Positions 3,128-49,259 of a stretch of DNA of 56,711 nucleotides are shown one piece after another (positions within the stretch are counted from its first letter, which is position 1; every line of letters begins with the position of its first letter). The stretch lies in the NCBI GenBank assembly GCA_012271185.1, contig JAAXGV010000096.1, positions 1 through 56,711 of the forward strand, in the 5' to 3' direction. The stretch comes from Rhodothermales bacterium. GTDB lineage: Bacteria; Bacteroidota; Rhodothermia; Rhodothermales; Bin80. The notes beneath the pieces were generated by a model. It did not search any database and was not told the DNA's origin. It saw only the letters and a program-made list of their open reading frames with translations. A program made the translations under genes and the position numbers.

Positions 3128-3282
3128 GACAGGCAAGATACGGTTTTTCCGATACGCACGCGCATCCCGCAGGGTTCAGGGTCGTGTACTTCTGAACATC
3201 ATTTCTGGTTCTCTCCATGCTTGTATGGAGAGACGGCGGCTTGTCTGGCAGCCCGCGGATAAAGCCGCTGGTGTAGCATGAC

Positions 3283-21770: not shown

Positions 21771-22958
21771 ATGAAAGCAAACGAGTGCTTTATCGTCAGC
21801 AGCTTCCGCACCGCTGTTGGCAAGGCAAAAAAAGGTACGCTGCGCTATATGCGTCCGGAGCAGATGGGAGCCGCGGCAGTGCGTGAAGCCGTCAGGCATG
21901 TCCCGGGGCTGGAGACCAAAGACATTGACGATGTGCTGATCGGCTGTGCCTTTCCTGAGGGCCCACAGGGAATGAACATGGGGCGCATCATCGCGGGTGA
22001 GGCAGGCCTGCCAATCACGGTGCCGGGCGCCACCGTGAACCGGTTCTGTGCCTCGGGACTGCAGACCATTGCCATGGCCTGCCAGTCCATAGCCAACGAC
22101 AGCGCCGACATCGTGGTGGCAGGTGGCACAGAGTCCATGAGCATGGTGCCAATGTCGGGATTCTATTTTCAGCCGGACCCGGACATTGCGCGGAGGCAGC
22201 CGGACACCTATATCTCGATGGGGCTGACTGCGGAGAACCTAGCGGAGAAGTACAAGATCTCGCGAGAGGAACAGGACCGGTTTGCGCAGCAGTCCCATGA
22301 CCGCGCGTTGCGCGCGCAGGTAGCGGGACGCTTCAGTGATGAGGTGATTCCGTTAAAGGTCACCATATCCAGCTTCAACGGTACCGGTGTTGATACTGTT
22401 ACGACAACGTTTGCAGCGGATGAGGGACCACGCAGTGACTCCTCCCGGGAGGCGCTTGCCAGGCTGAAACCGGTATTCAGGCGTGATGGCACAGTGACAG
22501 CGGGCAATTCATCGCAGATGTCCGATGGGGCGGCGGCCGCAGTGGTGATGAGCAAACAGACGATGCAGATGCTTGATGTAGAACCGATGGCGCGCATGGT
22601 TGGATATGCGGTGCACGGCGTGGCACCGGAAATCATGGGTATCGGCCCGGTCGGGGCGATACGGAAGGTGCTTCGGCGCAGCGGCCTCACGCTTGACCAC
22701 ATGGAGCTGATAGAGCTCAACGAGGCGTTTGCTTCCCAGGCGCTGGCGGTTGTGCAGCAGGCGCGGCTGGATGAGGAGATCGTGAACGTCAACGGCGGGG
22801 CGATCGCGCTGGGACACCCTTTGGGCTGCACCGGAGCCAAGCTGACGGCAACACTGCTGCATGAGATGAAGCGTCGTGGCGCCCGCTACGGGCTCTGTAC
22901 GATGTGTATCGGCGGCGGCATGGGGGCCGCGGCCATCTTTGAAAACCTCCAACGGTAG
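21771..22958 (+). CDS. acetyl-CoA C-acyltransferase (thiolase)
   Basis: 395 aa. The active-site Cys context is VNRFCASGLQ, and the C-terminal motifs are NGGAIALGHPLGCTGA and CIGGGMG. Confidence 0.95.
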   Translation: MKANECFIVSSFRTAVGKAKKGTLRYMRPEQMGAAAVREAVRHVPGLETKDIDDVLIGCAFPEGPQGMNMGRIIAGEAGLPITVPGATVNRFCASGLQTIAMACQSIANDSADIVVAGGTESMSMVPMSGFYFQPDPDIARRQPDTYISMGLTAENLAEKYKISREEQDRFAQQSHDRALRAQVAGRFSDEVIPLKVTISSFNGTGVDTVTTTFAADEGPRSDSSREALARLKPVFRRDGTVTAGNSSQMSDGAAAAVVMSKQTMQMLDVEPMARMVGYAVHGVAPEIMGIGPVGAIRKVLRRSGLTLDHMELIELNEAFASQALAVVQQARLDEEIVNVNGGAIALGHPLGCTGAKLTATLLHEMKRRGARYGLCTMCIGGGMGAAAIFENLQR

Positions 22959-22971
22959 ACGCGATCTTGCT

Positions 22972-25488
22972 ATGGAGACATGGCTGTTCTATGGTGTGCT
23001 GTCAGAAACGCCCTGGTGGGCGGTCACACTGGGTTCGCTGCTGATATTTGGACTGCTGGGGTTCACAGGCAGCCCCCTCTGGATATGGAGCGTGGCGATA
23101 ATCGCGCTGTTGTACGCCTTGGGCGCCCCCCTGTGGCTGGCCACTGCAGCAGTCATACTGGTGACCCTGCTGCTGCTCAAGCCTCTGCGTCGCGCCCTGC
23201 TGTCCCGGCCAATGATGCGTATGCTAGATGCTCTGGGTGTTCTGCCTCGAATCTCTGCAACGGAGAAGTTTGCGATTGAGGCAGGAACGGTATGGGTTGA
23301 GGGGGAGCTGTTTTCGGGTCGCCCCAACTTCAGACGCATCCTCGCAGAACCTTATCCGACGCTTACGGAAAAGGAGCAGGCGTTTGTTGACGGCCCCGTA
23401 GAGGCGCTGTGCAGCTCCGTGACAGACTGGGAGATCCGTACCGCTCGTGAGTTCCCTCCAGAGGTCTGGGACATTATCCGGCACGAAAGGCTCTTTGGCC
23501 TCATCGTGCCCAGAAAGTATGGAGGGCATCGCTTCTCTGCCGCGGCCAACAGCGCGACGGTATCCAAGTTGAATTCCCACAGCTATCCGCTGGGTATCAC
23601 GGTGATGGTGCCCAACTCGCTTGGACCGGCAGAGCTCCTGATTCACTATGGCACCAGGGAGCAGCAGGAGTACTTTTTGCCGAGGCTGGCCGATGCTACG
23701 CTTACGCCGGCTTTTGCCCTGACCGAGCTGGAAGCCGGATCGGATGCAGGAGCCATTCGTGCCACCGGTGAGGTGTTCCGGGACCAGAACGGGGAGGTCA
23801 AGATCTGCCTTAACTGGCGCAAGCGGTATATCACGCTGGCTGCGATCGCGGATCTTCTGGGGCTGGCTTTCAAGCTAAAAGATCCTGAAAACCTTCTGGG
23901 CCAGGGCACGAACCCGGGCATCACATGTGCCCTTGTTCATACCGACACCCCTGGCGTGGTGGTCGGCGACCGCCACGATCCGCTCGGCGTGCCTTTTGTG
24001 AATGCACCAACGGAGGGGCACAACGTGATCGTGACCCCTGATGCCATCATTGGCGGTGCCGAAGGAGCAGGACGGGGCTGGCAGATGCTGATGGAGTGCC
24101 TGGCCGCCGGTCGTGGAATCTCCCTTCCCGCCTCATCGGTAGGAACAGCAAAGAGCGTGTTCCTGATCGCGTCAGCGCATGCCGTCGTGCGCAGGCAGTT
24201 TGGGCTGCCGCTCGGCAAGTTTGAGGGTGTCCAGGAGGCGCTTGCCCGCATTGGCGGTTTCGCGTACCTGATGGACGCCGCCCGCATCTATACCGTCGGC
24301 GCCATTGACCAGGGTGCTGCACCGGCCGTGGTGACGGCCATCGTCAAGTACAACCTCACGGAACTGGGCCGCAAGGTGGTGATAGCCGGAATGGACATTA
24401 CCGCAGGCAACGGGATTTCGCTTGGGCCTCGCAACTCGATTGCACACAACTACATAAGCATTCCCATCGCTATAACCGTAGAGGGAGCAAACATACTCAC
24501 CCGGACGCTGATGATCTTCGGTCAGGGTGCTATACGGTGCCACCCGTGGGCATACAAAGAGATCACCGCGCTGGAGCGGCATGACGTTACCGCTTTCGAT
24601 TATGCCATCTGGGGTCATCTGGGTCATATTGTCCGAAACGGATTCAGGGCGGTGCTGCTCGGACTTTCACGTGGGCGTCTGGCGGGTGCCGCAGGTGTGC
24701 GCGGGCCCGCTGCACGGTATGTGCGCCGCCTGAAGTGGGCTTCAGCATCGTTTGCGTTCCTGGCTGATATCGCGATGGTCAGTCTAGGTGGACAACTCAA
24801 GCGCAAAGAGATGATCACAGGCCGATTCGCCGACATCTTTTCATGGATGTACTTGGCGACGGCTACCATCCGGCGTTTTGAGGCGGAGGGTCGTCGCAGC
24901 GAGGATCGGCCATACTTCCGCTGGGCAATGGACTATGCGTTGGCGCGTATCCAGGAAGCCTTTGACGGGTTGTATGCCAACGTCCGGGTACCGGGGCTGA
25001 CCTGGCTTCTGCGCGGGCCTGTTGCGCTGTATTCCCGCTTCAACAGCCTGGGGCGGGATCCCAGCGACAGGCTCAGCCACAAGGTGGCGCAGCTGATGCA
25101 GACGCCGGGTGAACAGCGGTCACGGCTGACAGCAGGGTGCTACAAGCCGGCGGCGGACCAGCCAGGTTTAGGCAAGCTGGAGGCTGCCTTCACCTTGGCC
25201 TGCGAGGCGGACCAGATCATGAGTCGGGTCTCAGCGGCGGTCCGCAAGCGTGTGCTCAGCAGGCGGCCGAAGAGAACCCTTGCAGAACGTGCTGCCGATG
25301 CCGGCATTATAACGGCAGCGGAGCTGGAGCTTGTCAGGCGGTCGGATGCCGCCCGGCTGGAAGCGATCCAGGTAGACTCTTTTGATCCGGAAACCTACCG
25401 GCGACACCACCAGGTCAATACAATCTCCATCAAGGTCGGAGAGGACATGGCCCTGGCGACACAGGCAGACAGCATCGCCGGCACCTGA
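22972..25488 (+). CDS. large FadE-type acyl-CoA dehydrogenase
   Basis: The start is moved to the ATG at 22972 (METWLFYG), after the thiolase stop. N-terminal TM segments are followed by an ACAD core (TELEAGSDAG) and a long C-terminal domain. Confidence 0.9.
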   Translation: METWLFYGVLSETPWWAVTLGSLLIFGLLGFTGSPLWIWSVAIIALLYALGAPLWLATAAVILVTLLLLKPLRRALLSRPMMRMLDALGVLPRISATEKFAIEAGTVWVEGELFSGRPNFRRILAEPYPTLTEKEQAFVDGPVEALCSSVTDWEIRTAREFPPEVWDIIRHERLFGLIVPRKYGGHRFSAAANSATVSKLNSHSYPLGITVMVPNSLGPAELLIHYGTREQQEYFLPRLADATLTPAFALTELEAGSDAGAIRATGEVFRDQNGEVKICLNWRKRYITLAAIADLLGLAFKLKDPENLLGQGTNPGITCALVHTDTPGVVVGDRHDPLGVPFVNAPTEGHNVIVTPDAIIGGAEGAGRGWQMLMECLAAGRGISLPASSVGTAKSVFLIASAHAVVRRQFGLPLGKFEGVQEALARIGGFAYLMDAARIYTVGAIDQGAAPAVVTAIVKYNLTELGRKVVIAGMDITAGNGISLGPRNSIAHNYISIPIAITVEGANILTRTLMIFGQGAIRCHPWAYKEITALERHDVTAFDYAIWGHLGHIVRNGFRAVLLGLSRGRLAGAAGVRGPAARYVRRLKWASASFAFLADIAMVSLGGQLKRKEMITGRFADIFSWMYLATATIRRFEAEGRRSEDRPYFRWAMDYALARIQEAFDGLYANVRVPGLTWLLRGPVALYSRFNSLGRDPSDRLSHKVAQLMQTPGEQRSRLTAGCYKPAADQPGLGKLEAAFTLACEADQIMSRVSAAVRKRVLSRRPKRTLAERAADAGIITAAELELVRRSDAARLEAIQVDSFDPETYRRHHQVNTISIKVGEDMALATQADSIAGT

Positions 25489-25501: not shown

Positions 25502-25957
25502 ATGAGCTTTTTGAAACTGGTGTTCTTGCTGTTGCACGTGATCACGGCAGCAGCGTGGTTCGGGCTGGCACTGCGCCTTAGCGGAATGGCGCGGCAGATT
25601 GGGGGCCTTAGAGGCGAGGCCGCAAAGGCTTTGGCCGACTGCGGCGCTAGGGACGTGCGGCTGCTGACGCTGTCACTGCTGCTGACTTTCGCCTTTGCGA
25701 TGGGTCTGCTGGCGCTTGGGCGGGGCTATCCGGGCCAGATGGAGTACCACATTGCCTCGGCACTGATAGTCGTCCTGGTTGGCGTCCACTTCTTCTTGAT
25801 CCGGCCTGCCTGGAAGGGCCTGAGTGCTGCAGCAGCGTCACAGGAGGGTACGCACGTTTTCCAGAAGCGCATCGCGGGTGCCACCGGGCTGGGCCACCTG
25901 ATCTGGCTGACGCTGCTGATCCTGATGTTCTGGAGAAGATTCGAAGCGGTGCTGTAG
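25502..25957 (+). CDS. 4-TM membrane protein, unknown function
   Basis: 151 aa from the ATG at 25502 (MSFLKLVFLLLHVITAAAWFG). Its 3' end is part of the left direct repeat of islet 1. Confidence 0.65.
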   Translation: MSFLKLVFLLLHVITAAAWFGLALRLSGMARQIGGLRGEAAKALADCGARDVRLLTLSLLLTFAFAMGLLALGRGYPGQMEYHIASALIVVLVGVHFFLIRPAWKGLSAAAASQEGTHVFQKRIAGATGLGHLIWLTLLILMFWRRFEAVL

Positions 25958-26030
25958 AAGCAGTCGCCCAGCGTGCGCCCCGCTATGGCTGCGGTGCGAA
26001 TGAACGAGCACTGGAGCCAGATTAAAAGGA
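25843..26030. repeat. left copy of the imperfect direct repeat bracketing islet 1
   Basis: GGAGGGTACGCACGTTTTCCAGAAGCGCATCGCGGGTGCCACCGGGCTG ... CTATGGCTGCGGTGCGAATGAACGAGCACTGGAGCCAG aligns with 29972-30135. Confidence 0.8.
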
Positions 26031-26068
26031 TCCGGATCGAAGGTCAGCCTATGACAGAGTGGGTATAG
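25985..26068 (+). pseudogene. truncated csbD-like start (27 codons)
   Basis: MAAVRMNEHWSQIKRIRIEGQPMTEWV* parallels MATPRMNESWSQVRSQIEEIW of the intact copy at 30090 but diverges and stops early. Confidence 0.55.
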
Positions 26069-26164
26069 ATGCCGAGGGAACCGTCGTCAGGCGAAACCTG
26101 TCTTCCTGCTCATGTGGGGTGACCAGATCTACGCCACCATAGTGCACGAAGCTAAGGGTATATC

Positions 26165-27631
26165 ATGACCGTTCCAAGCTACTGTTGGCAACCGATAGAA
26201 GACGTGGAGCCACACGCAGCACTGGGACTAGGGGAACCCGGGCTTGGTGCCTTGGCGCAGGTCTGGCGTGAGCAGCGCGAGCGTCTGAGCACCCAGGAAG
26301 CGTATCGCCAGTTTGAGGAGCGATTGCAGCGCGAGTGGGCCATCGAGACAGGACTGATCGAGCGCCTATACACATTCGACCGTGGAATCACGCAGCAGCT
26401 CATCGAGCACGGAATCCAGGCTGCGCTAATTCCACGACAGCACGGTATGAATGCTGAAGCGGTCGCGGCAATGATCAATGACCACAAGGCGGCGGTAGAA
26501 AATGTGTTCGACTTTGTAAAGGACAGGAGACACTTATCCACCAGCTACATCAAGGAGATGCATGCCCTGATGACGCGGCAGCAGAAAACCGTGGAGGGCC
26601 TTGACGCTTTGGGCAGGTCAGCATCGATTCCACTGATTCGCGGCGATTACAAGCGCTTGCCGAATAACCCGTGTCGACCAGACGGCACCATCCATGAGTA
26701 CTGTCCGCCGCACCATGTTGCTTCGGAAATGGACCGGCTGATCGTTATGCATCACAAGCATCAAGATTATGCGCCTGAGGTCGAAGCCGCATGGTTACAT
26801 CACCGGTTCACGCAAATCCACCCGTTTCAAGACGGTAATGGCCGGATCGCTCGTGCCTTGGCAACTCTGGTTTTCATCAAAGCCGGCTGGTTCCCCATAG
26901 TGATCCCGGAGCAGGAGCGGGCACAGTATATCAGCGTTCTGGAGGACGCGGACAGCGGCGACCTTGAGCCCTTGGTCCGCTACTTTGCTCGTCTGCAGCG
27001 CACGCAATTCCTTCGCGCGTTGAGTATCACAGAGCATGTCCGGAAGAGCCGTCGTGTGGCAGACCAGATCAGGTCCATTCGGCAGCAGCTTAAAAAGCGC
27101 AAGGATTCCATCGTTGCCGAACTGGAGGCCGCAGAATCCATCGCCGCATCGCTACTGGAACAAGCTAAGCAGCGGCTGGATACAGTTGCAGCTGATTTGA
27201 GCAACGAATTGAGCGACATATTGGAGCACGTCACATACTACGCCGACAGTGCAGCAAATGATAGTGATCGCAGCCATTGGCACTGCAATCAGATTGTTCG
27301 CACTGCGGAGAAGCTGGGCTATTTTGCCAACTTCCGTCTCTACCGGGCTTGGACGCGGCTGGTGATGCACAATGCCAACAAGACTCAATTGCTAATCTCA
27401 GTTCATGGGATAGGACGACAGTTTCAGGGCGTGCTGGCTTGTTCCGCATCGTGGTTCCAGCGGGTAGAGGTAGAGGGCAGCGAGGAGTCGGGTTCCGTTG
27501 TTCCGGCAACCGACGAAGTCTTTCTGATCAACTACAAGGAGCCCGTTGAGGAAGCCGCGGCGCGATTCTCATTCTGGCTCGAAGACGCAATCGTACATAG
27601 CCTTCGGTTATGGCAAGAGGCCGAGTGGTAG
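26165..27631 (+). CDS. Fic-family protein with an uncharacterised C-terminal region of about 200 aa
   Basis: 488 aa with the canonical Fic motif HPFQDGNGRIARAL at nt 26819-26860. The C-terminal part has no motif I recognise. Confidence 0.9.
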   Translation: MTVPSYCWQPIEDVEPHAALGLGEPGLGALAQVWREQRERLSTQEAYRQFEERLQREWAIETGLIERLYTFDRGITQQLIEHGIQAALIPRQHGMNAEAVAAMINDHKAAVENVFDFVKDRRHLSTSYIKEMHALMTRQQKTVEGLDALGRSASIPLIRGDYKRLPNNPCRPDGTIHEYCPPHHVASEMDRLIVMHHKHQDYAPEVEAAWLHHRFTQIHPFQDGNGRIARALATLVFIKAGWFPIVIPEQERAQYISVLEDADSGDLEPLVRYFARLQRTQFLRALSITEHVRKSRRVADQIRSIRQQLKKRKDSIVAELEAAESIAASLLEQAKQRLDTVAADLSNELSDILEHVTYYADSAANDSDRSHWHCNQIVRTAEKLGYFANFRLYRAWTRLVMHNANKTQLLISVHGIGRQFQGVLACSASWFQRVEVEGSEESGSVVPATDEVFLINYKEPVEEAAARFSFWLEDAIVHSLRLWQEAEW

Positions 27632-27782
27632 CGTTGGCGCCCTGGAGAAAGAGCAGGCTGGTTCTTGCTGCCCGGCTTTTCTATGCCACGCCTGGGGCGC
27701 ACGTGCGCTAGCCAACCTTAGGAACTCCTGATTAAGTTGGAACCCGAGACTGATGTTGGCATAACCTATAAGAAACACCTTC

Positions 27783-28045
27783 ATGCAGCTTAGTTTCACA
27801 GACCTCGAATACGGAAACAGGAAAACGAAGGGAGTTACACGCCAAACAGATACGAATAAATCTGGCACTGCAACTGAAGGATAGCAGGACTCAGCTAGCG
27901 CACAAGTTTGGGCCGATCCTCGGCTTTCCAAGCCGCAAGGTCGTCTTGGGCCCAAATTCTTCCCTATCTCGGCGCTGGTGCCTCTTTTTCACCCAGCACG
28001 CTGAAACCCCCGTTTCTTCCACGGACCCCTACGGTCTCAGGCACT
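27783..28045 (+). pseudogene. IS5-family transposase 5' remnant
   Basis: The ATG at 27783 opens MQLSFTDLEYGNRKTK (compare the IS5-group N-terminus M.QLSF.D.EY..KRK), with a stop after 33 codons. The downstream 27900-28045 belongs to the dispersed repeat family. A locally low-GC patch spans 27700-27900. Confidence 0.5.
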
Positions 28046-28137
28046 CCAGGCGGAGCCATTGGGCTGGTACCTTGGCTTCCGTTCGGTCCACTCCTGGCCC
28101 TGTTTCCACACCGCGGGCAGAACTGTAGCCTCCTGAC

Positions 28138-29174
28138 TCACTGGGCCGGCCCCGTCCTGCGCCCAAGCGGCGCACTTACGTCGATTACAATGACTTTGGT
28201 CTTGAGCCGATGTTGCGGGACCAGCTCGGCCTTCAACCGATTCCGAAGTTGGCCAGGAGATTCTGGACGGCGACCGCTCGGTGGCGGATTCTTGAGGTGG
28301 TCGGCGCCAAACCACAACACCAGGTAGATGCCGTAGCTGTCGGATCTGGGGTCGCGACAGTATCGCCCATGCAGCTGGTCGCTTGCAGTGGTCCAGAGAT
28401 CCCGGCGTCGGTCTTTTTGATCTCGATGGGAACGGCGTGCGGGAAGCAGTGCACCATGATGTCGGGATGCTTTTCCTCGGCGACCTGCTCGTCCTGGCTG
28501 GTTGTAACGTCATACAGATCAAGCAGGGGCTCCAGATCGGACACCAGCACCTTCCGGCAAGCGTTTTCAGGCTTTGGCGCAATGACCCCCCTGCCCTTCG
28601 GATCCTCTGGATCCGTGTGCCAGTACTGAATCCAGGCATCGGTGCTTCCATTTCGGACTCGCTTTCCCAGTTGGCTCAGCCTCTCGGCGACAAGCGCCAC
28701 CAGATCCGCCGCACTACCAGGTGGCCCGCCCCGCAGCGCTTCGCACACCTCGTTCACGGTCGGCGTTCTGCGGGTTATGGCCCGGCGCTGCTCGTCGCGA
28801 GCTCGCCGGAGTTTCGCGCTCCACTTTGTCAAGGCGGGGTCGTCTGCCAGGCCGACGAGTGCGGCACTAGTCTCGTTGTCCGCTCTGCGTGCCAGGGTTT
28901 TAATCCAGCCGTTTACAAGGGACACCGCCCGGACTCCGGTGGCGAAGCTGTCGCCATCCATGCAAGGATGGGTCGAGTCGGGAACATCGTCCCATGGTGA
29001 ATGCAACCTGGACCCAACGGCCCGAATAAGGTCGGCCAGGTGTCCGGTCGGCCATTCCTGATTCGGCAAGGGGTTCCTGTCCGGCACCAGAAAGCTGACC
29101 ACATGGTGCACCCGTACTTCCCCGCCACCCAACAAGAAGTTGATCAAACGGGGTAAATGCTTGTTCGGTGCCAC
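28138..29174 (-). pseudogene. N-terminally truncated, frameshifted PD-(D/E)xK nuclease module
   Basis: ORF 28233..29174 ends with EEKHPDIMVH...AVPIEIKKTD. In a second frame the sequence continues RRDLWTTASDQLHGRYCRDPRSDSYGIYLVLWFG...IVIDVS down to the stop at 28138. The switch coincides with the A5 run (T5 on the plus strand, 28414-28418). Confidence 0.6.
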
Positions 29175-29292
29175 GAGACTGGTCTGCCGCCAGCCAATAG
29201 GCCTGCTGAACCAGGTCCAGCCCGCTCCGCTCCTAACACAGATCGTGGGACCAAGCGAAGAGACTCGTGAGGTAGGTCGGGCGAAAAAGGAG

Positions 29293-29733
29293 ATGGCGGA
29301 GCGCGAGCGGTTGCGCTACCGGTTCTTTGAAGGACTGCTCGAGCACGCCAAGACGAGAACTTCCCTGCACGCGAACATCAGCCCCTCAAAGCGCAGCTGG
29401 GTCGGGGTGGGATCCGGGATCGCCGGAGTTGCTTTCAACTACGTGGTTCGGCAGCACGACGCTCGCGTCGAGTTGTATATTGACACGAGGGACAGTGACA
29501 AGAATCAGCGCATCTCCGGGGCGCTCGCCGACAATAAGGACAGTATCGAGCGCACGTTTGGCCACTCGTTGAAGTGGGGTGCCTTGAAAGGGCGGCAGGC
29601 TTGCCGGATTTCGAAGGCATACGGAAACAGGGGATACCTAGATGAAGACAAGTGGGAGGCCGTGTACGAGGCATTGGTAGATGCGATGGCAAAGTTCGGA
29701 TCGGCCCTCAAGCCACATCTCAAGGGGCTGTAG
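29293..29733 (+). CDS. stand-alone DUF4268-domain protein
   Basis: 146 aa from the ATG at 29293, with AAAAAGGAG upstream. YRFFEGLLEHAKTRTSLHANISPSKRSWVGVGSGIAGVAFNYVVRQHDARVELYID matches my recollection of the DUF4268 pattern. Confidence 0.65.
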   Translation: MAERERLRYRFFEGLLEHAKTRTSLHANISPSKRSWVGVGSGIAGVAFNYVVRQHDARVELYIDTRDSDKNQRISGALADNKDSIERTFGHSLKWGALKGRQACRISKAYGNRGYLDEDKWEAVYEALVDAMAKFGSALKPHLKGL

Positions 29734-29971
29734 CATCGCGTTGGTCTTTGCGACTCACACCGCAAGGGACTCGGAATACATGGTGCCGTTTGGCACCTCG
29801 GAAGATCGGAACCCGCCCGGTTCGGGTGCCCGCTAGGTAACTGGCTCGGCCAAGCCGTGGCGGAGGGATGAAGGCCAGCGGTTGAGGATGCGTTTTCAGT
29901 GCTTGGCGAGGGAACGAGTCCAGCCGGAGATCCTGGTGAAGTTGGGGGTAGCGGCGGGTCTGGCAACCCGT

Positions 29972-30135
29972 GGAGGGTGCGCATCCCAGAAGCGCGTCGC
30001 GGGTGCCACCGGGCTGATCTGGCTGGTGCTTCGGAACAGGCGCGAAGCAAGGCTGTAAAAATAGTACGTGAAACAACGCGAATCCCGTTATGGCCACCCC
30101 GCGAATGAACGAGAGCTGGAGTCAGGTGAGGAGTC
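29972..30135. repeat. right copy of the imperfect direct repeat bracketing islet 1
   Basis: GGAGGGTGCGCATCCCAGAAGCGCGTCGCGGGTGCCACCGGGCTG ... TTATGGCCACCCCGCGAATGAACGAGAGCTGGAGTCAG. It contains a decayed copy of the 3' end of gene 25502..25957 (with deletions), followed by the intact csbD-like start. Confidence 0.8.
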
Positions 30136-30284
30136 AGATTGAAGAGATCTGGAGCGAAACCGAGTTTACTGACAGGGAGATGAAAAAGGCGCGCGGCAAT
30201 ATGCGCAAGATGGTCGCACTCATCCACGAGAAGACCAACGAGCCAAAGCACGAGATCTTCGCAAAGATCAGCGCGATCATCTAG
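30090..30284 (+). CDS. CsbD-like small stress-protein homolog
   Basis: 64 aa, with an alternative ATG at 30105. The W..V...I.E.W...FTD.E......G....L pattern resembles the CsbD family. Confidence 0.5.
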   Translation: MATPRMNESWSQVRSQIEEIWSETEFTDREMKKARGNMRKMVALIHEKTNEPKHEIFAKISAII

Positions 30285-30694
30285 TGCCCACGTTCAGCGA
30301 GATTCGTGCGTTCACGGGCTCACTGGGTATACTGTCTACCTCAGAGCGGCAGTACCTGGCTGCGCTCGTGGAACACGCCGACATAGTGGATGACCTCTCC
30401 GAGGCGGAATGCAAAGACTTTCTGCTGTCCCTTGAGCACGTTAGAAAGGATATCTCCACAGCGCTGCTGTGGGCTTTTTTCCTGGGGGGTGTAGGCGCTC
30501 ACCACTACTACCTCAAGCGCACAGCCACGGGTATTCTCTATACGGTCATGACCTGCACGTTGGTCCTGTACCCGGTCAGCTATGTGCTCAACATCGTGGA
30601 CCTCTTTCGGATGAAGAAGTTGGTTGTGCAGACCAATCGTAAACGGGCCTTGGAGCTCAAGAGCATGATCCTGGCCTCCCGCGCACGCACCTGA
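30284..30694 (+). CDS. TM2-domain membrane protein
   Basis: 136 aa with a GTG start overlapping the upstream stop. The TM2 signature is FFLGGVGAHHYYLKRTATGILY. Confidence 0.75.
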   Translation: MPTFSEIRAFTGSLGILSTSERQYLAALVEHADIVDDLSEAECKDFLLSLEHVRKDISTALLWAFFLGGVGAHHYYLKRTATGILYTVMTCTLVLYPVSYVLNIVDLFRMKKLVVQTNRKRALELKSMILASRART

Positions 30695-40785: not shown

Positions 40786-43710
40786 ATGGCGTTGCGTGCG
40801 CTGCCGGATTTTCTGGCCGCCTTGCGGTCCCAGTGCGAGGGGGAGGTCCGCACGGACGACTACAGCCGTATCCTGTACAGCACTGATGCGAGCATCTACC
40901 AGGTGATGCCGCACGGTGTGATGTTTCCGCGTTCCGCTGCGGATGTCCAGGCGGTCATCACACTGGCTGCGCAGCATGGCATCGCGCTCGTGCCCCGCAC
41001 AGGTGGCAGCAGCCTCGCCGGGCAGGCCATCGGGGAGGCACTGGTGATGGATTTCACGGCGCACCTGAACGGGATCCTGGAATACTCCCGGGAAGAGCAG
41101 TGGGTGCGTGTGGAGCCCGGCATCGTGCTGGACCAGCTGAACCTGGAGCTGGCATCCTCGGGGCTTCAGTTCGGACCGGACCCGGCCAGCGCCAACCGTG
41201 CTGCGATGGGTGGCATCGTGTCCAACAACTCCACAGGCAGCCACTCCATCTGCTACGGCATGACAGCGGACCATGTCTTGGCTATGAACGTGGTGCTCAG
41301 CGATGGATCCCGCACGCATCTGGGACCGGTGGAGGGTAATGCACTGGAGCAGTTTTCCAGGCGCAGCGGGCTGGAAGGTGCACTCTATCGGGGTCTTCAG
41401 GACCTGGTTGGCGCGCCTGCCAACAGGGAGACGATCCTGGAAGGCACACCGCGCCACTGGCGTCGCTGTGGTGGCTACAACCTTGACCGCTTTGTGGGTG
41501 CAGGTCCGTCTTTCCGATGGCCGCAGGATGAGCGCTTCAACCTGGCCAAGCTGGTTTGTGGCGCTGAGGGAACGCTGGCTGTTATTGAAGACGTGAAGCT
41601 GAACCTTGTCCCTGTGCCGCCGGCCAAGGGACTGGGCGTAGTGCACTTTGAGAGCATCCATGAGGCGCTCAGTGCTGTGCCCGCGATTCTGGAGGTGTCG
41701 CCCAGCGCCGTTGAGCTGCTGGACAGCCTGGGCCTGTCGCTGTGTCGCGGCGTGCCCGAGTATGCCCGGCTGCTCACCCGCTTTATCGAAGGCAGGCCTG
41801 ACTGCATACTGATCACCGAGTTCTGCGGATCAGACCAGGGCGAGGTGGCTGAGAAGGTGGACGCCCTTCGCAGGCACCTCCGGAGCCATGCATCAGGCAG
41901 CGTGGTCGCGGTCTTGGACCCGAAGCATCAGCAGGACGTGTGGAAAGTGCGCAAGGTGGGGCTGGGGCTGCTGATGAGCATCAAGGGCGACCACAAGCCG
42001 ATCCCGTTTATTGAAGACGCTGCTGTGCCTACGGAGCACCTTGCGCAGTACGTTCAGGAGATTGACCGCTTCTGCCAGGAGCGTGGTACGCGCGTAGCAT
42101 ACTATGCGCATGCCAGCGCCGGCTGCGTGCATATCCGGCCGCTGATCAACACGAAGGCCGCTGCTGAGCTTGAGAAGATCCCGGAGATCACCGCTTTCGC
42201 TGTCGGGCTTTTGCGCGGCTGCGGCGGCGCCCTCTCCAGTGAGCACGGCGATGGCCGCGCGCGCAGCTGGATGAACGAACGCTTCTTCGGACCGGCCCTT
42301 TACGGGCTGTACAAGGAGGTGAAGAAGCTCTTCGATCCGCACAATATCCTGAACCCGGGCAATGTGGTTGATGGCCCTCCGGTTACGGACAACCTGCGCT
42401 ACGGAGCAGACTATGGTGTGATTCCGCTGCCACTGAAGCTTGACTGGCATCAGGACATGGGCTTTGACCGTGCAGTGGAGATGTGCAACGGCGCCGGCAT
42501 CTGCCGCAAGGCGACGGCGGGTACAATGTGCCCGAGCTTTATGGCCACGCGGGAAGAGGAGCACTCCACGCGGGGTCGCGCCAATGCCCTTCGTGCCGCC
42601 CTGTCAGGAAGGCTGCCGCACAGCGAGCTCACCAGCCGCAGGATGTACGAGGTGATGGACCTGTGTGTGGAGTGCAAGGCATGCAAAGCCGAGTGTCCTT
42701 CCTCGGTGGACATGGCCAAGATCAAGTTCGAGTTTCTGGCCCAGTATCATGCCAGGCACGGCATACCGGTCCGGAGCCGTCTTTTCGGCCATGCCTGGCA
42801 GCTGGGACGCCTGGGCAGTGGCCCGCATGCGGGGCTTATCAACCGCATGCTGGGAAGCCGGGCGGTGCGTCACGGCCTGGAAGCGATGCTGGGCCTGAGC
42901 CGCCAGCGCACACTGCCTGCGTACGCCCGGGAGCCGTTTACACGATGGTTCCGGCGGCGGCGCCAAGGCGCTCAGAACGGCCGTCCGCAGGTCGTGCTGC
43001 TGAACGACACCTTTACGACCTGCCACGAGCCGGAGATTGCCATCAGCACTACGAAGGTTCTGGAGGCTGCAGGCTTTGAGGTTGTGCTTCCGGGTCACCG
43101 CTGCTGCGGACGGCCGATGATTTCCAAGGGCCTGGTTGATGCGGCCCGGCGTGCCGCACGCCATACTGTGGACCGGCTTGCGCCGTTTGCCAGGCGCGGC
43201 ATCCCGATCATCGGCTTGGAGCCCAGCTGCCTGCTGTCTTTGCGCGATGAGTATCTGTACCTCCTGCCGGACGATCATGCAGCGCAGCAGGTGGCCGCGC
43301 ATGCTGTGCTGTTTGAGGAGTTTCTGGCCCGTCTGGCTGATGAAGGGCAGCTTGCGCTGGCGTTTACGCGCACGGAACGCCGCGTGCTGCTGCACAGCCA
43401 CTGCCATCAGAAGGCACTGGTAGGGTCAGCCCCCGGCATGCGTGTGCTGTCGCTGCCCGAAGGCTATGATGTGCACGAGGTGGACTCAGGCTGCTGCGGC
43501 ATGGCCGGCTCGTTTGGATACGAGAAGGAGCACTACGATATTTCGGTGAAGATGGCTGAGCGCCGCCTTTTACCTGCCGTGCGCGAGGAGGAAGAAGACA
43601 CCATCCTGGTGGCTGCGGGGGTCAGCTGCCGCCACCAGATCAGGCATGGCTCGGGCCGCACAGCGTTGCATCCGGCACAGGTTGTCCATGGCGCGCTCCT
43701 TGCACCCTGA
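40786..43710 (+). CDS. FAD-binding oxidase fused to an Fe-S/CCG domain (GlcD-GlpC-like)
   Basis: The start is moved to the ATG at 40786 (MALRALPDF). It has an FAD PCMH domain (RTGGSSLAGQA), a ferredoxin-type cluster (CVECKACKAECP) and CCG motifs (HRCCGRP, SGCCGMAGSFG). Confidence 0.9.
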   Translation: MALRALPDFLAALRSQCEGEVRTDDYSRILYSTDASIYQVMPHGVMFPRSAADVQAVITLAAQHGIALVPRTGGSSLAGQAIGEALVMDFTAHLNGILEYSREEQWVRVEPGIVLDQLNLELASSGLQFGPDPASANRAAMGGIVSNNSTGSHSICYGMTADHVLAMNVVLSDGSRTHLGPVEGNALEQFSRRSGLEGALYRGLQDLVGAPANRETILEGTPRHWRRCGGYNLDRFVGAGPSFRWPQDERFNLAKLVCGAEGTLAVIEDVKLNLVPVPPAKGLGVVHFESIHEALSAVPAILEVSPSAVELLDSLGLSLCRGVPEYARLLTRFIEGRPDCILITEFCGSDQGEVAEKVDALRRHLRSHASGSVVAVLDPKHQQDVWKVRKVGLGLLMSIKGDHKPIPFIEDAAVPTEHLAQYVQEIDRFCQERGTRVAYYAHASAGCVHIRPLINTKAAAELEKIPEITAFAVGLLRGCGGALSSEHGDGRARSWMNERFFGPALYGLYKEVKKLFDPHNILNPGNVVDGPPVTDNLRYGADYGVIPLPLKLDWHQDMGFDRAVEMCNGAGICRKATAGTMCPSFMATREEEHSTRGRANALRAALSGRLPHSELTSRRMYEVMDLCVECKACKAECPSSVDMAKIKFEFLAQYHARHGIPVRSRLFGHAWQLGRLGSGPHAGLINRMLGSRAVRHGLEAMLGLSRQRTLPAYAREPFTRWFRRRRQGAQNGRPQVVLLNDTFTTCHEPEIAISTTKVLEAAGFEVVLPGHRCCGRPMISKGLVDAARRAARHTVDRLAPFARRGIPIIGLEPSCLLSLRDEYLYLLPDDHAAQQVAAHAVLFEEFLARLADEGQLALAFTRTERRVLLHSHCHQKALVGSAPGMRVLSLPEGYDVHEVDSGCCGMAGSFGYEKEHYDISVKMAERRLLPAVREEEEDTILVAAGVSCRHQIRHGSGRTALHPAQVVHGALLAP

Positions 43711-43756
43711 AAGTTCGTGAAAGAAGGGAGCTCCTGAAAGGCCCGTCCTGGGCTCA

Positions 43757-44206
43757 CACTCGCCTCGGCGCTGCTGCCTCTCGCTCACCCGGCGTTCTGA
43801 AATCCGCTGCTTCCGCGAGCTGCTAGCCCAGGAGAGTGTTGAGGGTAACCACCGCGCTGATTACGATAACGCTCATGCTGATAACCCACAGCAGGATCCG
43901 CATCTTACTGTCTATTACAGCATTCTGCATGTCCAGCTTGTTGTTCTGCGCTTCCAGTCGGGCATTTACGGCATCCAGCTTGGGTTCCATGGCGCCTTGG
44001 AATTGAGCGATAAGATTGGCACTGGCCATGGTTTGAAGTTCTTGAACGAAGGAGTAGGCCTCCTCCTCTTTCAGGCCCAGCTTCAGAAGCAGCAGAAACA
44101 GGTGCTTATCGTCCGGAGAAGGCCGCATCTCGGCCATTGTGAAGATACGTGGCGAAGGCTGCTGGTACCACCGCTCGGGTGCAAGGGTCGCAGGCGCTTC
44201 CCTGCG
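43757..44206. repeat. left copy of the roughly 450-bp direct repeat bracketing islet 2
   Basis: It aligns by eye with 49503-49947. The alignment covers a repeat-family segment, the whole 104-aa gene, and about 70 nt upstream including the hairpin CGCAGG-CGCTTC-CCTGCG. Confidence 0.85.
43823..44137 (-). CDS. tail-anchored coiled-coil membrane protein, copy 1
   Basis: 104 aa from the ATG at 44137 (MAEMRPSPDDKHLF...). The start is chosen because the paralog begins at the equivalent Met. The C-terminal TM helix is ILLWVISMSVIVISAVVTL. Architecture resembles DUF1640/XhlA-type proteins (architecture only). Confidence 0.7.
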   Translation of the reverse strand: MAEMRPSPDDKHLFLLLLKLGLKEEEAYSFVQELQTMASANLIAQFQGAMEPKLDAVNARLEAQNNKLDMQNAVIDSKMRILLWVISMSVIVISAVVTLNTLLG

Positions 44207-45136
44207 CCCTGACAGTCCGCGAAAGAAACGGGGTTTCTGAAAGACCCGTCCTGGGCTCAAACTCACACCCGCCTCGGCGCTGCATTTGGCAGGGTTGGCT
44301 ACCGATGAGCAGTTCGCCTATCCGAACTTCGTGAACCGTTGCAGAGTCCTCTCCGACGATAAGGGCACGGCCTGCCCGAACTTTGTGAACGAACTCACAA
44401 GTCGTATCAGTGCACTGAAGATGATCCCCTACCATCGAGGAGCCGCGAAAGGTGGCACTGACAGAGCGGTCGGCACCCCGCTGCTCCACTTCCACCCCGA
44501 TAGATCCTTTTAGTAACATCTACCATCTCCTTCGCATTAGCCCTTCCGGGAATATGTCTATTGTATGGAAACACTGAGAAACAATTCGAGATCACGAGTG
44601 GGCGGTTTTTTTCGGTCGCCGTGTGTAGGGCCAACGACATTCGTCTGGGTGATGATCGATCGGATCCCTTGCATCAGCTTCGTCTTGCCCCCGGGGGGCG
44701 GGCGACCAGTTCTCGGCTTCCTGCAGGGAGGGTCACAGTTCACTCTGGATCGGCCTGCTACCGGGGTCCCTACTTGAGGCAGGGTGACCCGCCAACTGGC
44801 TGGCCAATCCACTGCACAGCAGCTGGCAAACAATGCGTCTCTTGGGGGCGTGCTTCCCTGGCTGGCGGACTTCTATGCCGGACTTGGGTATAAAAATGAC
44901 GTGGGAGTCGGGTGCGGAATTTGGCCCTCCTGCGATTCACAGGGGATTGTCCGCTTATTCGCAGGCGCGGTCGTATCTTGCGCTTCCTTGGGTGCCACCT
45001 GTGCAGGAAGGAAACCCGGCCCGAATACTCGGTGGAAACTGGAAGGCCCACGCCCTTGCCTTGGTCCTGCCCTATATTGGGGTCCATCGTTCAATGCAAA
45101 CTGTACTGACAAGGCTACGGCTAAAAAGCCAACGAA

Positions 45137-47143: not shown

Positions 47144-47379
47144 TGAATTCCCCATCGAGCCTCATACCTTCGTGGGAATCAGCACCACACCGCCTGACGA
47201 GTTGAATTCCTTGCCGATTCCGACATCTCGGATCACCCTATGTGGGCACGCCGCCGGCCCAAGAGGAGGCCCCGATGGCCGAGAGCGACAGACACAGCTG
47301 CGTGTTGGGGATTGTTTTGAGATATCCCCGATGATCTGCCCTGTAACAACTATTCCTTAGGATAAGTTTAGAGAGGCTG

Positions 47380-47560
47380 ACGCGAGGAATCCAAGCGATG
47401 TCTACTACACACCCGTCGTGATCGTGCACCACCTCGCGAAGAGCATCCTGCGTACCAACGCCATTTGGCCGAGATCGCAAAGACGGATCCCGGAAGAGCG
47501 ACCCAGCACTTTCTTTCCTTTGCCGTGGCCAGCCCGGCGTGTGGGGGCGCCCTCCTCTTC
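47380..47560 (+). pseudogene. possible remnant of an N6-adenine DNA methyltransferase (weak)
   Basis: DVYYTPVVIVHHLAKSIL (compare the G.YYTP..IV motif) lies at 47397 onward. In a shifted frame, DPGRATQHFLSFAV (compare motif I, DPACGSGHFL) starts at 47486. No intact ORF. Confidence 0.25.
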
Positions 47561-48073
47561 CCTTAGGTAGCGGAGATCCTAGCTGAGCGAGTTGTGCTCT
47601 TCCTCGCTAATCATTGCCGAGGCGCTCGATCGGATCGAAGTGGCACCACCGCGGGACGAAATCAGCGATCGTACCCGGGAGAAGGTGATGGACAGCCTCC
47701 AGTCGGGTACTAACGGTTGCCTGAGTCGCTGCGCGAAGATACCCGGTTACTGTCGGGTGGGTAGCGTGACACATGTCGTCATGGGCGCTCCGTCCACACG
47801 GGTTGTGAATACCGCACATCGCTTCAAGGTGCGCGTACCACATAAGATCAATTGCGGTCGCCTGACCATGCTTTCCAATGCAACGCCGTGCACATATCAC
47901 CCCGCCCCGGAACATTGCCATGCTACACCAGCCCGTGGAAGAAACGCCCGACAATCCGGGCGGACAAGTAACCCCCGATCTATGGGCAAATAGGCGGGAA
48001 CCGAGGCTTTTCCCTGCTGCTACAACGATAATCCCTGCTGATTAAATTATTATTACAGCAAGGGAAGAAATTT

Positions 48074-48466
48074 ATGTTTCACCACATTATTCTGGTGGCC
48101 ACTCTGTCAGTCACCACTGCCACATCGGTCAGCGAGCAAGAAGTCTGCAAGCCCGCCCACGAAAAGGAAGCCCGTCAGCGGGTTGCTGTTCTGAACTCCA
48201 ATGGGGAGACGTTGGTCAGGTTCACCGAGTTCTATGTGTTTCTGGAACCGGTGCTCTGGCACACCATCGACTACGAGCGCAAGCGGGTCCTAACGATAGC
48301 ACTCGCGGTCTATCATAACTGCGTCTGGCGACCCGCCAACGTTAAGGATCGGAGGGGCCGCCCGGAAAAAAAAAAAAAGCGCGACAACTGGCTGGTCACG
48401 GTCAAAGACGGCCGGACAGGAAAAAAGCTGGGCTCCATTGGACTGCTCGGGTTCAAGGTTCACTGA
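48074..48466 (+). CDS. small secreted hypothetical protein with a Lys-rich insert
   Basis: 130 aa with a signal-like N-terminus (MFHHIILVATLSVTTATSVS). The upstream region is low in GC. An A13 tract at 48366-48378 encodes EKKKK. Confidence 0.5.
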   Translation: MFHHIILVATLSVTTATSVSEQEVCKPAHEKEARQRVAVLNSNGETLVRFTEFYVFLEPVLWHTIDYERKRVLTIALAVYHNCVWRPANVKDRRGRPEKKKKRDNWLVTVKDGRTGKKLGSIGLLGFKVH

Positions 48467-48611
48467 GTAACCTTTAGGTCCAGCCACGCCTGAAGCATCA
48501 CCTCGCCATACTCCGAACTCGTCGTCGCTGATAGCCGCTGAGTGCTCCTCCGCGGACTAGTCAAGGTATGCCCGAGCCGCCCTCCTCGTTCGGCGTGTGA
48601 TCAGGCGAGTG

Positions 48612-49185: not shown

Positions 49186-49259
49186 TTTGCTGCATCAGCG
49201 CAGCGAACAGATGAAGCGGAATTCGCATACCGGCTCGTGACCGGAGGCTGCGCCGAGTT

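What the first reader, a model, noticed from the sequence alone, without database searches (positions are those of the whole stretch)
25843..30135. A 4-kb islet bracketed by direct repeats duplicating a gene end plus the next gene's start
The segment 25843-26030 holds the last 115 nt or so of membrane gene 25502..25957, the spacer, and MAAVRMNEHWSQ. It recurs at 29972-30135. In the left copy the membrane-gene end is intact and the csbD-like start is degenerate, stopping after 27 codons. In the right copy the membrane-gene end is degenerate, with deletions, and the csbD-like gene is intact. That reciprocal pattern is what Campbell-type or site-specific integration of a circular element at this junction would leave behind. 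The cargo is a Fic protein, an IS5 5' remnant, a truncated PD-(D/E)xK module and a DUF4268 protein. No integrase is visible, so the element appears immobilised.
Basis: seen in the sequence. Interest (0 to 1): 0.65.

Follow-up and report, generated by a model that had tools for sequence, protein, structure and literature searches.

The report
Decayed defence islet flanked by duplicated junction
A 3.9-kb stretch of mostly broken anti-phage defence genes was inserted between two neighbouring chromosomal genes of a Rhodothermales bacterium, duplicating about 200 bp of the junction; this is a clear but ordinary scar of horizontal gene transfer.

Summary
Window 25843-26043 and 29972-30160 are imperfect direct repeats (79% identity over aligned bases, four main indels, E = 9e-15, z = 18.9) with sharp ends. 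They duplicate the last ~115 nt of a membrane gene, the spacer and the first ~20 codons of a 64-aa gene.

In all 39 related loci that carry both genes (34 species-representative Rhodothermales genomes), the genes lie 36-216 bp apart with no duplication, so the site is empty there. The filled site occurs only in the window's own population.

Decay is reciprocal: the right copy lost invariant residues of the membrane protein's last helix, and the left copy lost 12 nt of the 64-aa gene and stops after 27 codons.

The cargo is a defence-gene graveyard:
- one intact Fic protein (SoFic/PDC-S04-like);
- a 5'-truncated, frameshifted NACHT (EruA-like) pseudogene;
- a 5'-truncated DUF4268/PDC-S11-like gene abutting it head to head;
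- a multi-copy IS-like scrap;
- a 110-nt dispersed repeat.

The window holds no integrase, tRNA or compositional anomaly. A second islet (43.7-49.9 kb) has the same topology with unrelated repeats. This favours homology-driven, single-crossover insertion of circular DNA over a dedicated integrase, but neither is proven. It is a new member of a known kind, of modest interest.

The parts
22876..25488 (+). Acyl-CoA dehydrogenase (FadE-type) gene; conserved upstream anchor of the locus
   Evidence: Pfam ACDH_C 5e-94 plus three Acyl-CoA_dh domains; present upstream in 35 of 39 related loci
25502..25957 (+). Intact 151-aa membrane protein gene of a Rhodothermales-specific family with no Pfam family
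   Evidence: 45 homologs, full-length alignment, all invariant residues kept including the C-terminal helix
25843..26043 (.). Left copy of the direct repeat (membrane-gene end, 27-nt spacer, decayed start of the 64-aa gene)
25861..25891 (.). Best-conserved 31-nt block of the repeat, left copy (30/31 identical to 29986-30016); possible crossover or gene-conversion tract
   Evidence: identity ~90% around it against ~73% in the rest, Fisher p = 0.008
25985..26068 (+). Decayed 5' copy of the 64-aa gene: MAAVRMNEHWSQIKRIRIEGQPMTEWV*, with a 12-nt deletion relative to the intact gene and to orthologs
26044..29971 (.). Unique DNA of the islet (3,928 bp), absent from all related loci
26165..27631 (+). 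Intact 488-aa Fic-domain protein with the HPFQDGNGRIAR motif; the only apparently functional cargo gene
   Evidence: Pfam Fic 1e-16; PADLOC SoFic 8e-26 and PDC-S04 9e-23; thousands of ~484-aa full-length homologs, best non-self 70% identity
27782..27829 (+). Short stretch that is multi-copy in the source metagenomes; start of a 33-aa ORF (27783-27884) that by eye resembles an IS5/InsH N-terminus
   Evidence: 18x depth against ~4x, and loose ends on both sides; no profile or database hit
27907..28026 (+). Copy of a ~110-nt dispersed repeat (other copies at 49438-49547 and 2359-2469)
   Evidence: no Rfam family; no covariation support
28144..29232 (-). Pseudogene: C-terminal ~390 codons of a ~1,400-aa NACHT antiphage protein (EruA-like) with a PD-(D/E)xK-type effector end. 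One frame change right after PVEIKK (~28410), another near 29180; ~1,050 N-terminal codons missing; weak homology up to 29313
   Evidence: NCBIfam NF058535 1e-33, model positions 1050-1237 of 1318; full-length relatives P0168, P0170, P0175
29224..29733 (+). 5'-truncated or orphaned DUF4268 / PDC-S11-like gene (possible residual ORF 29311-29733, 140 aa); abuts the NACHT remnant head to head, so one deletion can explain both truncations
   Evidence: Pfam DUF4268 5e-31; PADLOC PDC-S11 4e-38, model positions 169-310 of 314; alignment with 146-239-aa relatives
29972..30160 (.). Right copy of the direct repeat (decayed membrane-gene end, 31-nt spacer, start of the intact 64-aa gene)
29986..30058 (+). 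Dead remnant of the membrane-gene end (QKRVAGATGLIWLVLRNRREARL*), with 9-nt and 15-nt deletions that remove invariant H132, L141 and M142
30090..30284 (+). Intact 64-aa gene, strongly conserved (59-87% identity across Rhodothermales; 84-87% with the closest relatives), no detectable family
30284..30694 (+). TM2-domain membrane protein gene, downstream neighbour
   Evidence: Pfam TM2 4e-10; also present in L003-L006

Best explanation
A circular DNA molecule carrying accessory (defence) genes and a ~200-bp homologous copy of the membrane-gene/64-aa-gene junction recombined once with the chromosome inside that segment. This is Campbell-type topology, most likely made by the host's homologous recombination rather than by a dedicated integrase. 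The 3.9-kb insert therefore sits between two direct copies of the junction. Only one copy of each gene part was then needed. The membrane-gene end survived in the left copy and rotted in the right one. The start of the 64-aa gene survived in the right copy and rotted in the left one. The cargo has since been eroded by an internal deletion that fused two truncated defence genes head to head, by frameshifts and by an IS-like scrap, leaving only a Fic-domain protein intact. The islet is now a fixed, immobile part of this lineage's chromosome. Shown: the repeat, the empty site in relatives, the reciprocal decay, the identity and state of the cargo, and the absence of any recombinase. Inferred: the circular intermediate, the single crossover, and the choice of homologous over site-specific recombination.
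For: The repeat is significant and sharp-ended. The site is empty in all 39 related loci that carry both genes, with no duplication there. Orthologs show that the right membrane end and the left 64-aa start are the derived halves. No integrase or recombinase was found in the islet or among the 19 largest window ORFs scanned, and no tRNA anywhere in the 57-kb window. Homology covers the whole 200 bp on both sides of the best block, not just a short core. This junction is not used in any of 34 other species, unlike a typical integrase target. A second islet in the same window (43690-49946, GmrSD-like cargo) has the same topology but unrelated repeats: 386 bp at 90% identity, plus a ~90-nt copy of the FAD-oxidase gene end. 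It has a permuted R-end|r-start junction and again no recombinase. That fits a sequence-independent, homology-driven route. The cargo genes have separate affinities and are found elsewhere in defence or IS-rich contexts.
Against: No donor, circular form or excision product was found. Read evidence is only 3-5x Logan contigs, and the raw-read runs had no reads. The copies are now only 79% identical, and the only stretch long enough for efficient RecA pairing is the 31-nt block. Identity is uneven (about 90% around that block against about 73% elsewhere, p = 0.008), and the block lies at the far left of the repeat. Both features also fit an att core with an element-borne surrogate gene end. Proven internal deletions could have removed an integrase gene. 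The nearest empty-site relatives are distant (64% membrane-protein identity), so the event cannot be dated and native cannot be told from imported sequence. No relatives were available for the second islet, so its empty site is unverified.
Confidence: 0.45

Rival explanations
1. Remnant of a classical integrase-borne genomic island. A tyrosine-recombinase element targeted a core inside the 3' end of the membrane gene (the 31-nt block) and brought its own surrogate gene end plus downstream sequence, so the left copy right of the core is element DNA. The displaced native gene end decayed at the right border, and the integrase gene was later lost in the internal deletions.
For: A near-identical 31-nt block sits at the left edge of the repeat, with weaker similarity running ~150 nt to its right only, as in islands that restore the 3' end of their target. 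The target gene is kept intact. Large internal deletions are demonstrated. The site is empty in relatives.
Against: No recombinase gene or fragment was recognised in the islet; the called ORFs and the larger unassigned ORFs were scanned, and six-frame translations of the unassigned DNA were read by eye only. Only 120 nt separate the left repeat from the Fic gene. The site is unoccupied in 34 other species and no related element was found elsewhere. There is no compositional anomaly. The second islet in the window has the same topology with a quite different, much longer repeat and no shared core.
Confidence: 0.25
2. No circular intermediate. A linear fragment from a related donor, in which the islet already sat next to a dead membrane-gene end, was integrated by homology on the right (in the 64-aa or TM2 genes) and by an illegitimate join on the left inside the resident 64-aa gene (homology-facilitated illegitimate recombination). 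Alternatively, repair of a staggered break duplicated the 200 bp at the time of insertion.
For: Both repeat ends are sharp and flanked by unrelated DNA. The right copy's membrane remnant is heavily damaged while the adjacent 64-aa gene is perfect. No mobility gene is present.
Against: It needs a donor in which the conserved membrane gene was disrupted, and none of 80 surveyed loci shows that. It does not explain the near-identical 31-nt block. The second islet's permuted junction points to circularisation or tandem duplication rather than linear replacement.
Confidence: 0.15
3. Two separate events: an older local tandem duplication of the ~200-bp junction, followed by later insertion or insertions of foreign DNA between the two copies.
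For: The copies have diverged substantially (79% identity, several indels), and the cargo looks like several unrelated pieces.
Against: No relative has the duplication without an insert (0 of 39). It needs two independent events at the same nucleotide positions, which is less parsimonious.
Confidence: 0.1
4. Chance similarity, or an assembly artefact that joined two strains.
For: The source is a metagenome-type assembly at low coverage.
Against: E = 9e-15 and z = 18.9. The same structure, with 1 mismatch in 9,551 nt, was assembled independently from two samples, and Logan contigs from four runs of two studies tile it, several of them spanning the repeat copies.
Confidence: 0.02

Closest known systems
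Genomic islands inserted at the 3' end of a gene and flanked by attL/attR direct repeats (tyrosine-integrase islands such as tRNA-, guaA- or fda-targeting elements; from general knowledge)
   Same: An accessory insert bracketed by direct repeats that duplicate the target gene's 3' end; the target gene is kept intact; the site is empty in relatives; the cargo is defence genes.
   Different: No integrase or excisionase. The repeat is long (200 bp), covers the next gene's start as well, and is only 79% identical. The site is used in one lineage only. There is no compositional signature.
Campbell-type insertion-duplication (single crossover of a circular molecule carrying a homologous segment, as in suicide-plasmid integration; from general knowledge)
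   Same: The topology matches exactly: the homologous segment ends up as a direct repeat on both sides of the insert, and each copy is a potential hybrid. One copy of each interrupted function stays intact.
   Different: Here it is a natural event with no vector or replicon remains. The copies have diverged and the source of the circle is unknown.
Defence islands and islets at chromosomal hotspots
   Same: The cargo consists of known or candidate anti-phage genes (a Fic protein hitting the SoFic/PDC-S04 models, a NACHT EruA-like gene, a PDC-S11/DUF4268 gene) mixed with an IS-like scrap. The neighbouring interval is variable in relatives: Gabija-like genes in L007 and transposase-like ORFs (by eye) in L008 and L011.
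   Different: This junction is not a recurrent hotspot (0 of 39 relatives occupied), and most of the cargo is pseudogenised.
SoFic single-gene abortive-infection system (PMC12249575)
   Same: A Fic domain with an intact HxFx(D/E)GNGRxxR motif; a stand-alone gene; it hits the PADLOC SoFic model at 8e-26.
   Different: The NCBIfam SoFic equivalog scores 32 bits against a cut-off of 550. The protein belongs to a distinct, widespread ~484-aa Fic family with a ~200-residue C-terminal extension beyond the Fic domain. No AS1-like downstream gene was recognised. Function is untested.

Membership tests
Integrase-mediated genomic island (attL/attR) | Direct repeats at both borders that include the target gene's end | tested here: met
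   25843-26043 against 29972-30160, E = 9e-15, z = 18.9
Integrase-mediated genomic island (attL/attR) | Site-specific recombinase gene inside the element, usually next to one border | tested here: not met
   Pfam, PADLOC, NCBIfam and PHROGs scans of the islet ORFs gave no recombinase, and six-frame translations of the unassigned DNA read by eye showed none; none among the 19 largest window ORFs scanned
Integrase-mediated genomic island (attL/attR) | Empty target site in related genomes | tested here: met
   39 of 39 related loci have the two genes 36-216 bp apart
Integrase-mediated genomic island (attL/attR) | The same target is used repeatedly, or related elements exist elsewhere | tested here: not met
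   No other occupied site in 34 species. The islet flanks were found only in the same population, and the Fic searches of metagenome and viral contigs gave no related junction
Integrase-mediated genomic island (attL/attR) | Excision to a circle and an empty site | tested here: inconclusive
   No joints in Logan contigs at 3-5x depth, and zero reads in the three raw-read runs
Campbell-type homologous insertion-duplication | The insert is flanked by direct copies of one contiguous chromosomal segment, homologous over its whole length | tested here: met
   Collinear homology over 200 bp with sharp ends
Campbell-type homologous insertion-duplication | A stretch of near-identity long enough for RecA pairing | tested here: met
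   31-nt block, 30/31 identical
Campbell-type homologous insertion-duplication | A circular donor molecule carrying the homologous segment | not testable with these tools
   No donor was found. The second islet's permuted junction (44205|44190) is indirect support for circularised fragments in this genome
Defence island hotspot | Cargo made of known or candidate defence genes | tested here: met
   PADLOC SoFic/PDC-S04 and PDC-S11; NCBIfam antiphage_EruA
Defence island hotspot | Different cargos at the same position in related genomes | tested here: not met
   0 of 39 at this junction; variation is in the next interval, after the 64-aa gene
SoFic (NCBIfam NF046030 equivalog) | Score above the curated cut-off over the full length | tested here: not met
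   32.4 bits against a cut-off of 550; only the Fic core matches
NACHT antiphage protein EruA (NF058535) | Full-length protein with a NACHT NTPase module | tested here: not met
   116.7 bits against a cut-off of 1000. Only model positions 1050-1237 are matched; tblastn shows residues ~1015-1401 of ~1408 with frameshifts
CsbD family (PF05532), for the 64-aa gene | Match to the Pfam model | tested here: not met
   No CsbD hit at E <= 10. The best PDB sequence hit is 1yww (PA4738) at E = 0.92, which from memory is CsbD/YjbJ-like, so this is a lead only
IS5 family insertion sequence (remnant) | Match to the transposase or to terminal repeats | tested here: inconclusive
   No Pfam or NCBIfam hit and no plasmid tblastn hit. 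27782-27829 is multi-copy in the metagenomes, and relatives read ...LSFTDLEYGNRKTKKTRKQQLLE, which resembles InsH-type N-termini from memory

The most novel reading that the evidence does not exclude
Integrase-free insertion-duplication may be a regular route by which defence genes enter Rhodothermales chromosomes. In this route, circularised fragments from related strains recombine once through a few hundred bp of flanking core sequence. Two islets in one 57-kb window have this topology with unrelated repeats, and both contain the same 110-nt dispersed element, which could be part of the vehicle.
Probability: 0.15. Interest if true: 0.55.

Novelty: new member of a known kind. Interest (0 to 1): 0.3.

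Why it matters
This is a clean natural example of how an accessory islet enters a conserved operon without destroying either neighbour. The junction is duplicated, and each redundant half then decays. It also records the life cycle of defence genes: one intact Fic gene surrounded by the wreckage of a NACHT gene and a PDC-S11-like gene. For annotation, it explains a spurious 27-codon ORF and a spurious 58-aa ORF, shows that the 313-aa ORF is a pseudogene fragment, and flags the 140-aa DUF4268 ORF as a possibly orphaned fragment. If the second islet and the shared 110-nt element reflect a common mechanism, that would bear on how defence islands without mobility genes move. That link is not established here.

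Tried and rejected
1. Phylogenetic affinity of the membrane-gene tail after the 31-nt block, against the rest of the gene, to detect an imported surrogate end. The 60-nt segment is saturated (60-76% identity to all 74 orthologs, Spearman rho 0.06), so it is uninformative.

2. Extension of the repeat to the left, as suggested by a tblastn hit to 29951, and to the right. Neither is better than shuffles. The protein-level hit crosses a 4-nt indel, so it is spurious upstream of 29972.

3. GC, GC3 and codon usage. The islet is 58.2% GC against 59.0% for the window, and Fic is at the low edge of the core range, so there is no foreign signal.

4. Reads for excision or an empty allele. Only low-depth contigs without joints were available; the three raw-read runs had no reads and no RNA run holds the locus.

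5. Close relatives of the Fic gene, to find the vehicle. Metagenome and viral scans gave nothing related at a junction. The 70%-identical copies in other lineages sit alone, with no bracketing repeats and no conserved upstream DNA.

6. The IS5 identity of 27783-27884. There was no hit in Pfam, NCBIfam or plasmids, even with the longer N-terminus read from metagenome contigs.

7. The 110-nt repeat as a structured RNA. It has no Rfam family, and the consensus fold is weak with a slightly unfavourable covariation term.

8. A sigma-70 promoter and terminator scan across the islet found only background numbers.

9. A shared att core between islets 1 and 2. There is none; the only shared sequence is the 110-nt element.

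10. An alternative allele or empty site for islet 2. Exact-protein look-ups returned only the same arrangement, and no fetched locus covers the region in a relative.

Full report
**1. Observation**

The repeat finder returned three collinear direct-repeat pieces with offsets of 4105-4125 nt. MAFFT and gapped blastn align the two regions at E = 9e-15, and the right copy is the only other significant match to the left segment in the 56.7-kb window.

- The firm limits are 25843-26043 and 29972-30160: 137 matches, 36 mismatches, 44 gap columns, 79% identity over aligned bases.
- The score is z = 18.9 against dinucleotide-preserving shuffles. Extensions of 55-120 nt on either side score no better than shuffles, so the ends are sharp.
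- Identity is uneven. A 31-nt block (25861-25891 / 29986-30016) is 30/31 identical. The stretch 25843-25916 is about 90% identical and the remainder about 73% (Fisher p = 0.008).

**2. What the repeat contains**

The left copy carries three things: the intact end of the 151-aa membrane-protein gene (25502-25957), a 27-nt spacer, and a 27-codon ORF that starts like the 64-aa gene (MAAVRMNEHWSQ...) but lacks 12 nt and soon reaches a stop.

The right copy carries a membrane-gene end with 9-nt and 15-nt deletions, a 31-nt spacer, and the intact 64-aa gene at 30090-30284.

An alignment of 22 family members shows that the C-terminal helix is the most conserved part of the membrane protein. G129, H132, W135, L141 and M142 are invariant. 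The right copy has lost H132, L141 and M142, so it is a dead remnant even though it stays in frame to a stop codon.

**3. Empty sites**

The membrane protein has homologs only in Rhodothermales/Rhodothermaceae-type Bacteroidota.

- In the closest lineages with context (L003-L007, 63-64% protein identity), the order is 3-hydroxyacyl-CoA dehydrogenase, thiolase, acyl-CoA dehydrogenase, membrane gene, about 40 bp, then the 64-aa gene.
- A scan of one genome per species returned 80 loci.
- Both genes are present in 39 loci: 34 species representatives plus 5 metagenome contigs. In all 39 they are adjacent, 36-216 bp apart. In 35 the acyl-CoA dehydrogenase gene is upstream, and none has a second copy of either segment.
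- The filled site was found only in two metagenome contigs (L001, L002). Each differs from the window by 1 base over its length (9,551 and 3,213 nt), so they come from the same population.

Aligned to the empty sites, the left copy has the ancestral full-length membrane end and the right copy has the ancestral 64-aa start. The other two halves are the derived ones.

**4. Cargo (26044-29971)**

- **Fic gene, 26165-27631.** It encodes an intact 488-aa Fic protein (Pfam 1e-16) with the canonical HPFQDGNGRIAR motif. It hits PADLOC SoFic (8e-26) and PDC-S04, but it is far below the NCBIfam SoFic equivalog cut-off. It belongs to a large family of ~484-aa proteins. The best non-self identity is 70%, and those copies sit alone in unrelated contexts.
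- **IS-like scrap, 27782-27829.** This stretch is multi-copy in the source metagenomes, at 18x depth against about 4x. By eye it resembles the start of an IS5/InsH-type transposase, but no profile or database confirmed that.
- **Dispersed repeat, 27907-28026.** This is one of three copies of a ~110-nt repeat.
- **NACHT pseudogene, 28144-29232, minus strand.** The '313-aa ORF' is part of a pseudogene. It matches only positions 1050-1237 of the 1318-position NCBIfam model antiphage_EruA (1e-33). tblastn with ~1,400-aa relatives shows homology from residue ~1015/1055 to ~1401, with a frame change right after the PVEIKK nuclease motif (~28410) and another near 29180. The 3' end is complete and about 1,050 N-terminal codons, including the NACHT module, are gone.
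- **DUF4268 ORF.** It matches only the C-terminal half of the PADLOC PDC-S11 models. Homology to longer relatives, which begin with a nuclease-like IENQLE..DHDHLGKLLTY segment, starts only at ~29224.

The two truncated genes therefore abut head to head at about 29224-29232. One internal deletion explains both truncations. The islet is a decayed defence islet with one apparently live gene.

**5. What is absent**

No integrase, recombinase or transposase domain was found in the islet or among the 19 largest ORFs of the window that were scanned. The window has no tRNA and no Rfam family. Composition is unremarkable: the islet is 58.2% GC against 59.0% for the window, and Fic's GC3 and codon fit are at the low edge of the core range. 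Available reads show no excision, but they are too sparse to exclude it.

**6. A second islet with the same topology**

A second accessory region lies between the FAD-oxidase gene (ending at 43710) and the MFS gene (ending at 50014). It carries a GmrSD-like gene at 45137-47143 (Pfam GmrSD_N, 3e-27).

- It is bracketed by 386-bp direct repeats at 90% identity (43821-44205 and 49561-49946). Each copy holds an intact 104-aa coiled-coil/TM gene.
- A ~90-nt copy of the FAD-oxidase gene end plus downstream DNA (r2, 44190-44283; original r1, 43690-43774) starts exactly where the left big repeat ends.
- The order is therefore r1-R1|r2-cargo-R2. The R|r join is a permuted junction, as expected if a fragment r-cargo-R was circularised and then recombined once within R, or from a tandem duplication.
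- There is no recombinase and no sequence in common with islet 1 except the 110-nt element, which lies just inside the right repeat.
- I could not obtain relatives for this region.

**7. Mechanism**

The topology has three parts: one contiguous chromosomal segment present as a direct repeat on both sides of an insert, an empty and unduplicated site in relatives, and reciprocal decay. This is what a single reciprocal crossover between the chromosome and a circular molecule carrying that segment produces.

Which enzyme made the crossover is not shown. I favour homologous recombination (0.45), for these reasons:
- No recombinase is present.
- Homology spans the whole 200 bp.
- The site is used in one lineage only.
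- A second islet shows the same topology with a different, longer repeat.

A lost-integrase island (0.25) remains a serious rival. The near-identical 31-nt block sits at the left edge with weaker similarity only to its right, as in elements that bring a surrogate 3' end. Demonstrated internal deletions could also have removed an int gene.

The other alternatives are linear-fragment or break-repair routes (0.15), a two-step duplication then insertion (0.10), and artefact (0.02). An attempt to tell native from imported sequence by phylogeny failed because the segment is short and saturated.

**8. Comparison with known systems, and novelty**

The structure works like a Campbell-type insertion-duplication. 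It resembles an att-flanked genomic island, but it fails the defining integrase test, so I do not file it as one. The cargo fits the defence-island picture, yet this junction is not a recurrent hotspot. The variable interval in relatives is the next one, after the 64-aa gene, which holds Gabija-like genes in L007 and transposase-like ORFs (by eye) in L008 and L011.

The 'csbD-like' label for the 64-aa gene is unproven.

Overall this is a new member of a known kind: well documented and internally consistent, of modest interest. There is a low-probability, more interesting reading that integrase-free insertion-duplication is a regular entry route for defence genes in this group.

Noticed in passing
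window 43690-49946: A second accessory islet lies between the FAD-oxidase and MFS genes. It has a GmrSD-like gene (45137-47143) plus ~2.4 kb of ORF-poor DNA. It is bracketed by 386-bp direct repeats at 90% identity (43821-44205 / 49561-49946), each holding an intact 104-aa coiled-coil/TM gene (89.5% aa identity; 11 synonymous and 11 non-synonymous codon differences). A nested ~90-nt duplicate of the FAD-oxidase gene end (43690-43774 / 44190-44283) gives a permuted R|r junction. No recombinase is present.
   Followed up: partly
window 27907-28026, 49438-49547, 2359-2469: A ~110-nt dispersed repeat has three same-strand copies (74-80% identical). One lies inside each islet, and all three lie downstream of a minus-strand gene end. 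It has no Rfam family and no covariation support. It may be MITE- or REP-like, and the copy in islet 2 lies 13 nt from the right repeat.
   Followed up: partly
L007 9317-13139; L008 8700-13100; L011 8700-13800: In relatives, the variable interval is the one after the 64-aa gene. L007 has a Gabija-like pair there (a split AAA_15/OLD-TOPRIM gene plus a UvrD helicase). L008 has an IS110-like transposase ORF and L011 an IS256-like one (both by eye, not profile-tested). In most other species the 64-aa gene is followed directly by the TPR/GWxTD-like gene, and the TM2 gene is present only in the window and in L003-L006.
   Followed up: partly
window 30090-30284: The 64-aa protein is much more conserved than its neighbours: 84-87% identity to relatives whose membrane protein is 64% identical. 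It has no detectable family. The best PDB hit is 1yww (PA4738) at E = 0.92.
   Followed up: partly
window 395-1952 (minus strand) and 2663-3136 (minus strand): At the start of the window, two overlapping ORFs (279 aa with a GPSNTGKS Walker A motif, and 286 aa with ...LIIEEPEAHLHP...) look by eye like one frameshifted AAA/OLD-type ATPase gene. Next to them is a 157-aa TM plus RIDQVNG-repeat coiled-coil ORF, a copy of the 110-nt repeat, and a 42-nt inverted match to islet 2 (3267-3307 against 47892-47932). This may be a third decayed accessory region. It was not profile-tested.
   Followed up: no
window 28324-28356 and 29876-29912: These short stretches are shared with other, unrelated contigs in all four metagenome runs (loose ends on both sides). 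They suggest further small repeated sequences in the community. The second stretch lies just left of the right repeat copy.
   Followed up: no
L091 5595-6441; L092 5676-6594: Close DUF4268 relatives occur as a ~120-aa ORF followed by, or overlapping, a 146-197-aa DUF4268 ORF, in RM/Abi/IS-rich contexts. The PDC-S11-like gene may therefore often be split or pseudogenised, or may naturally be two genes.
   Followed up: no
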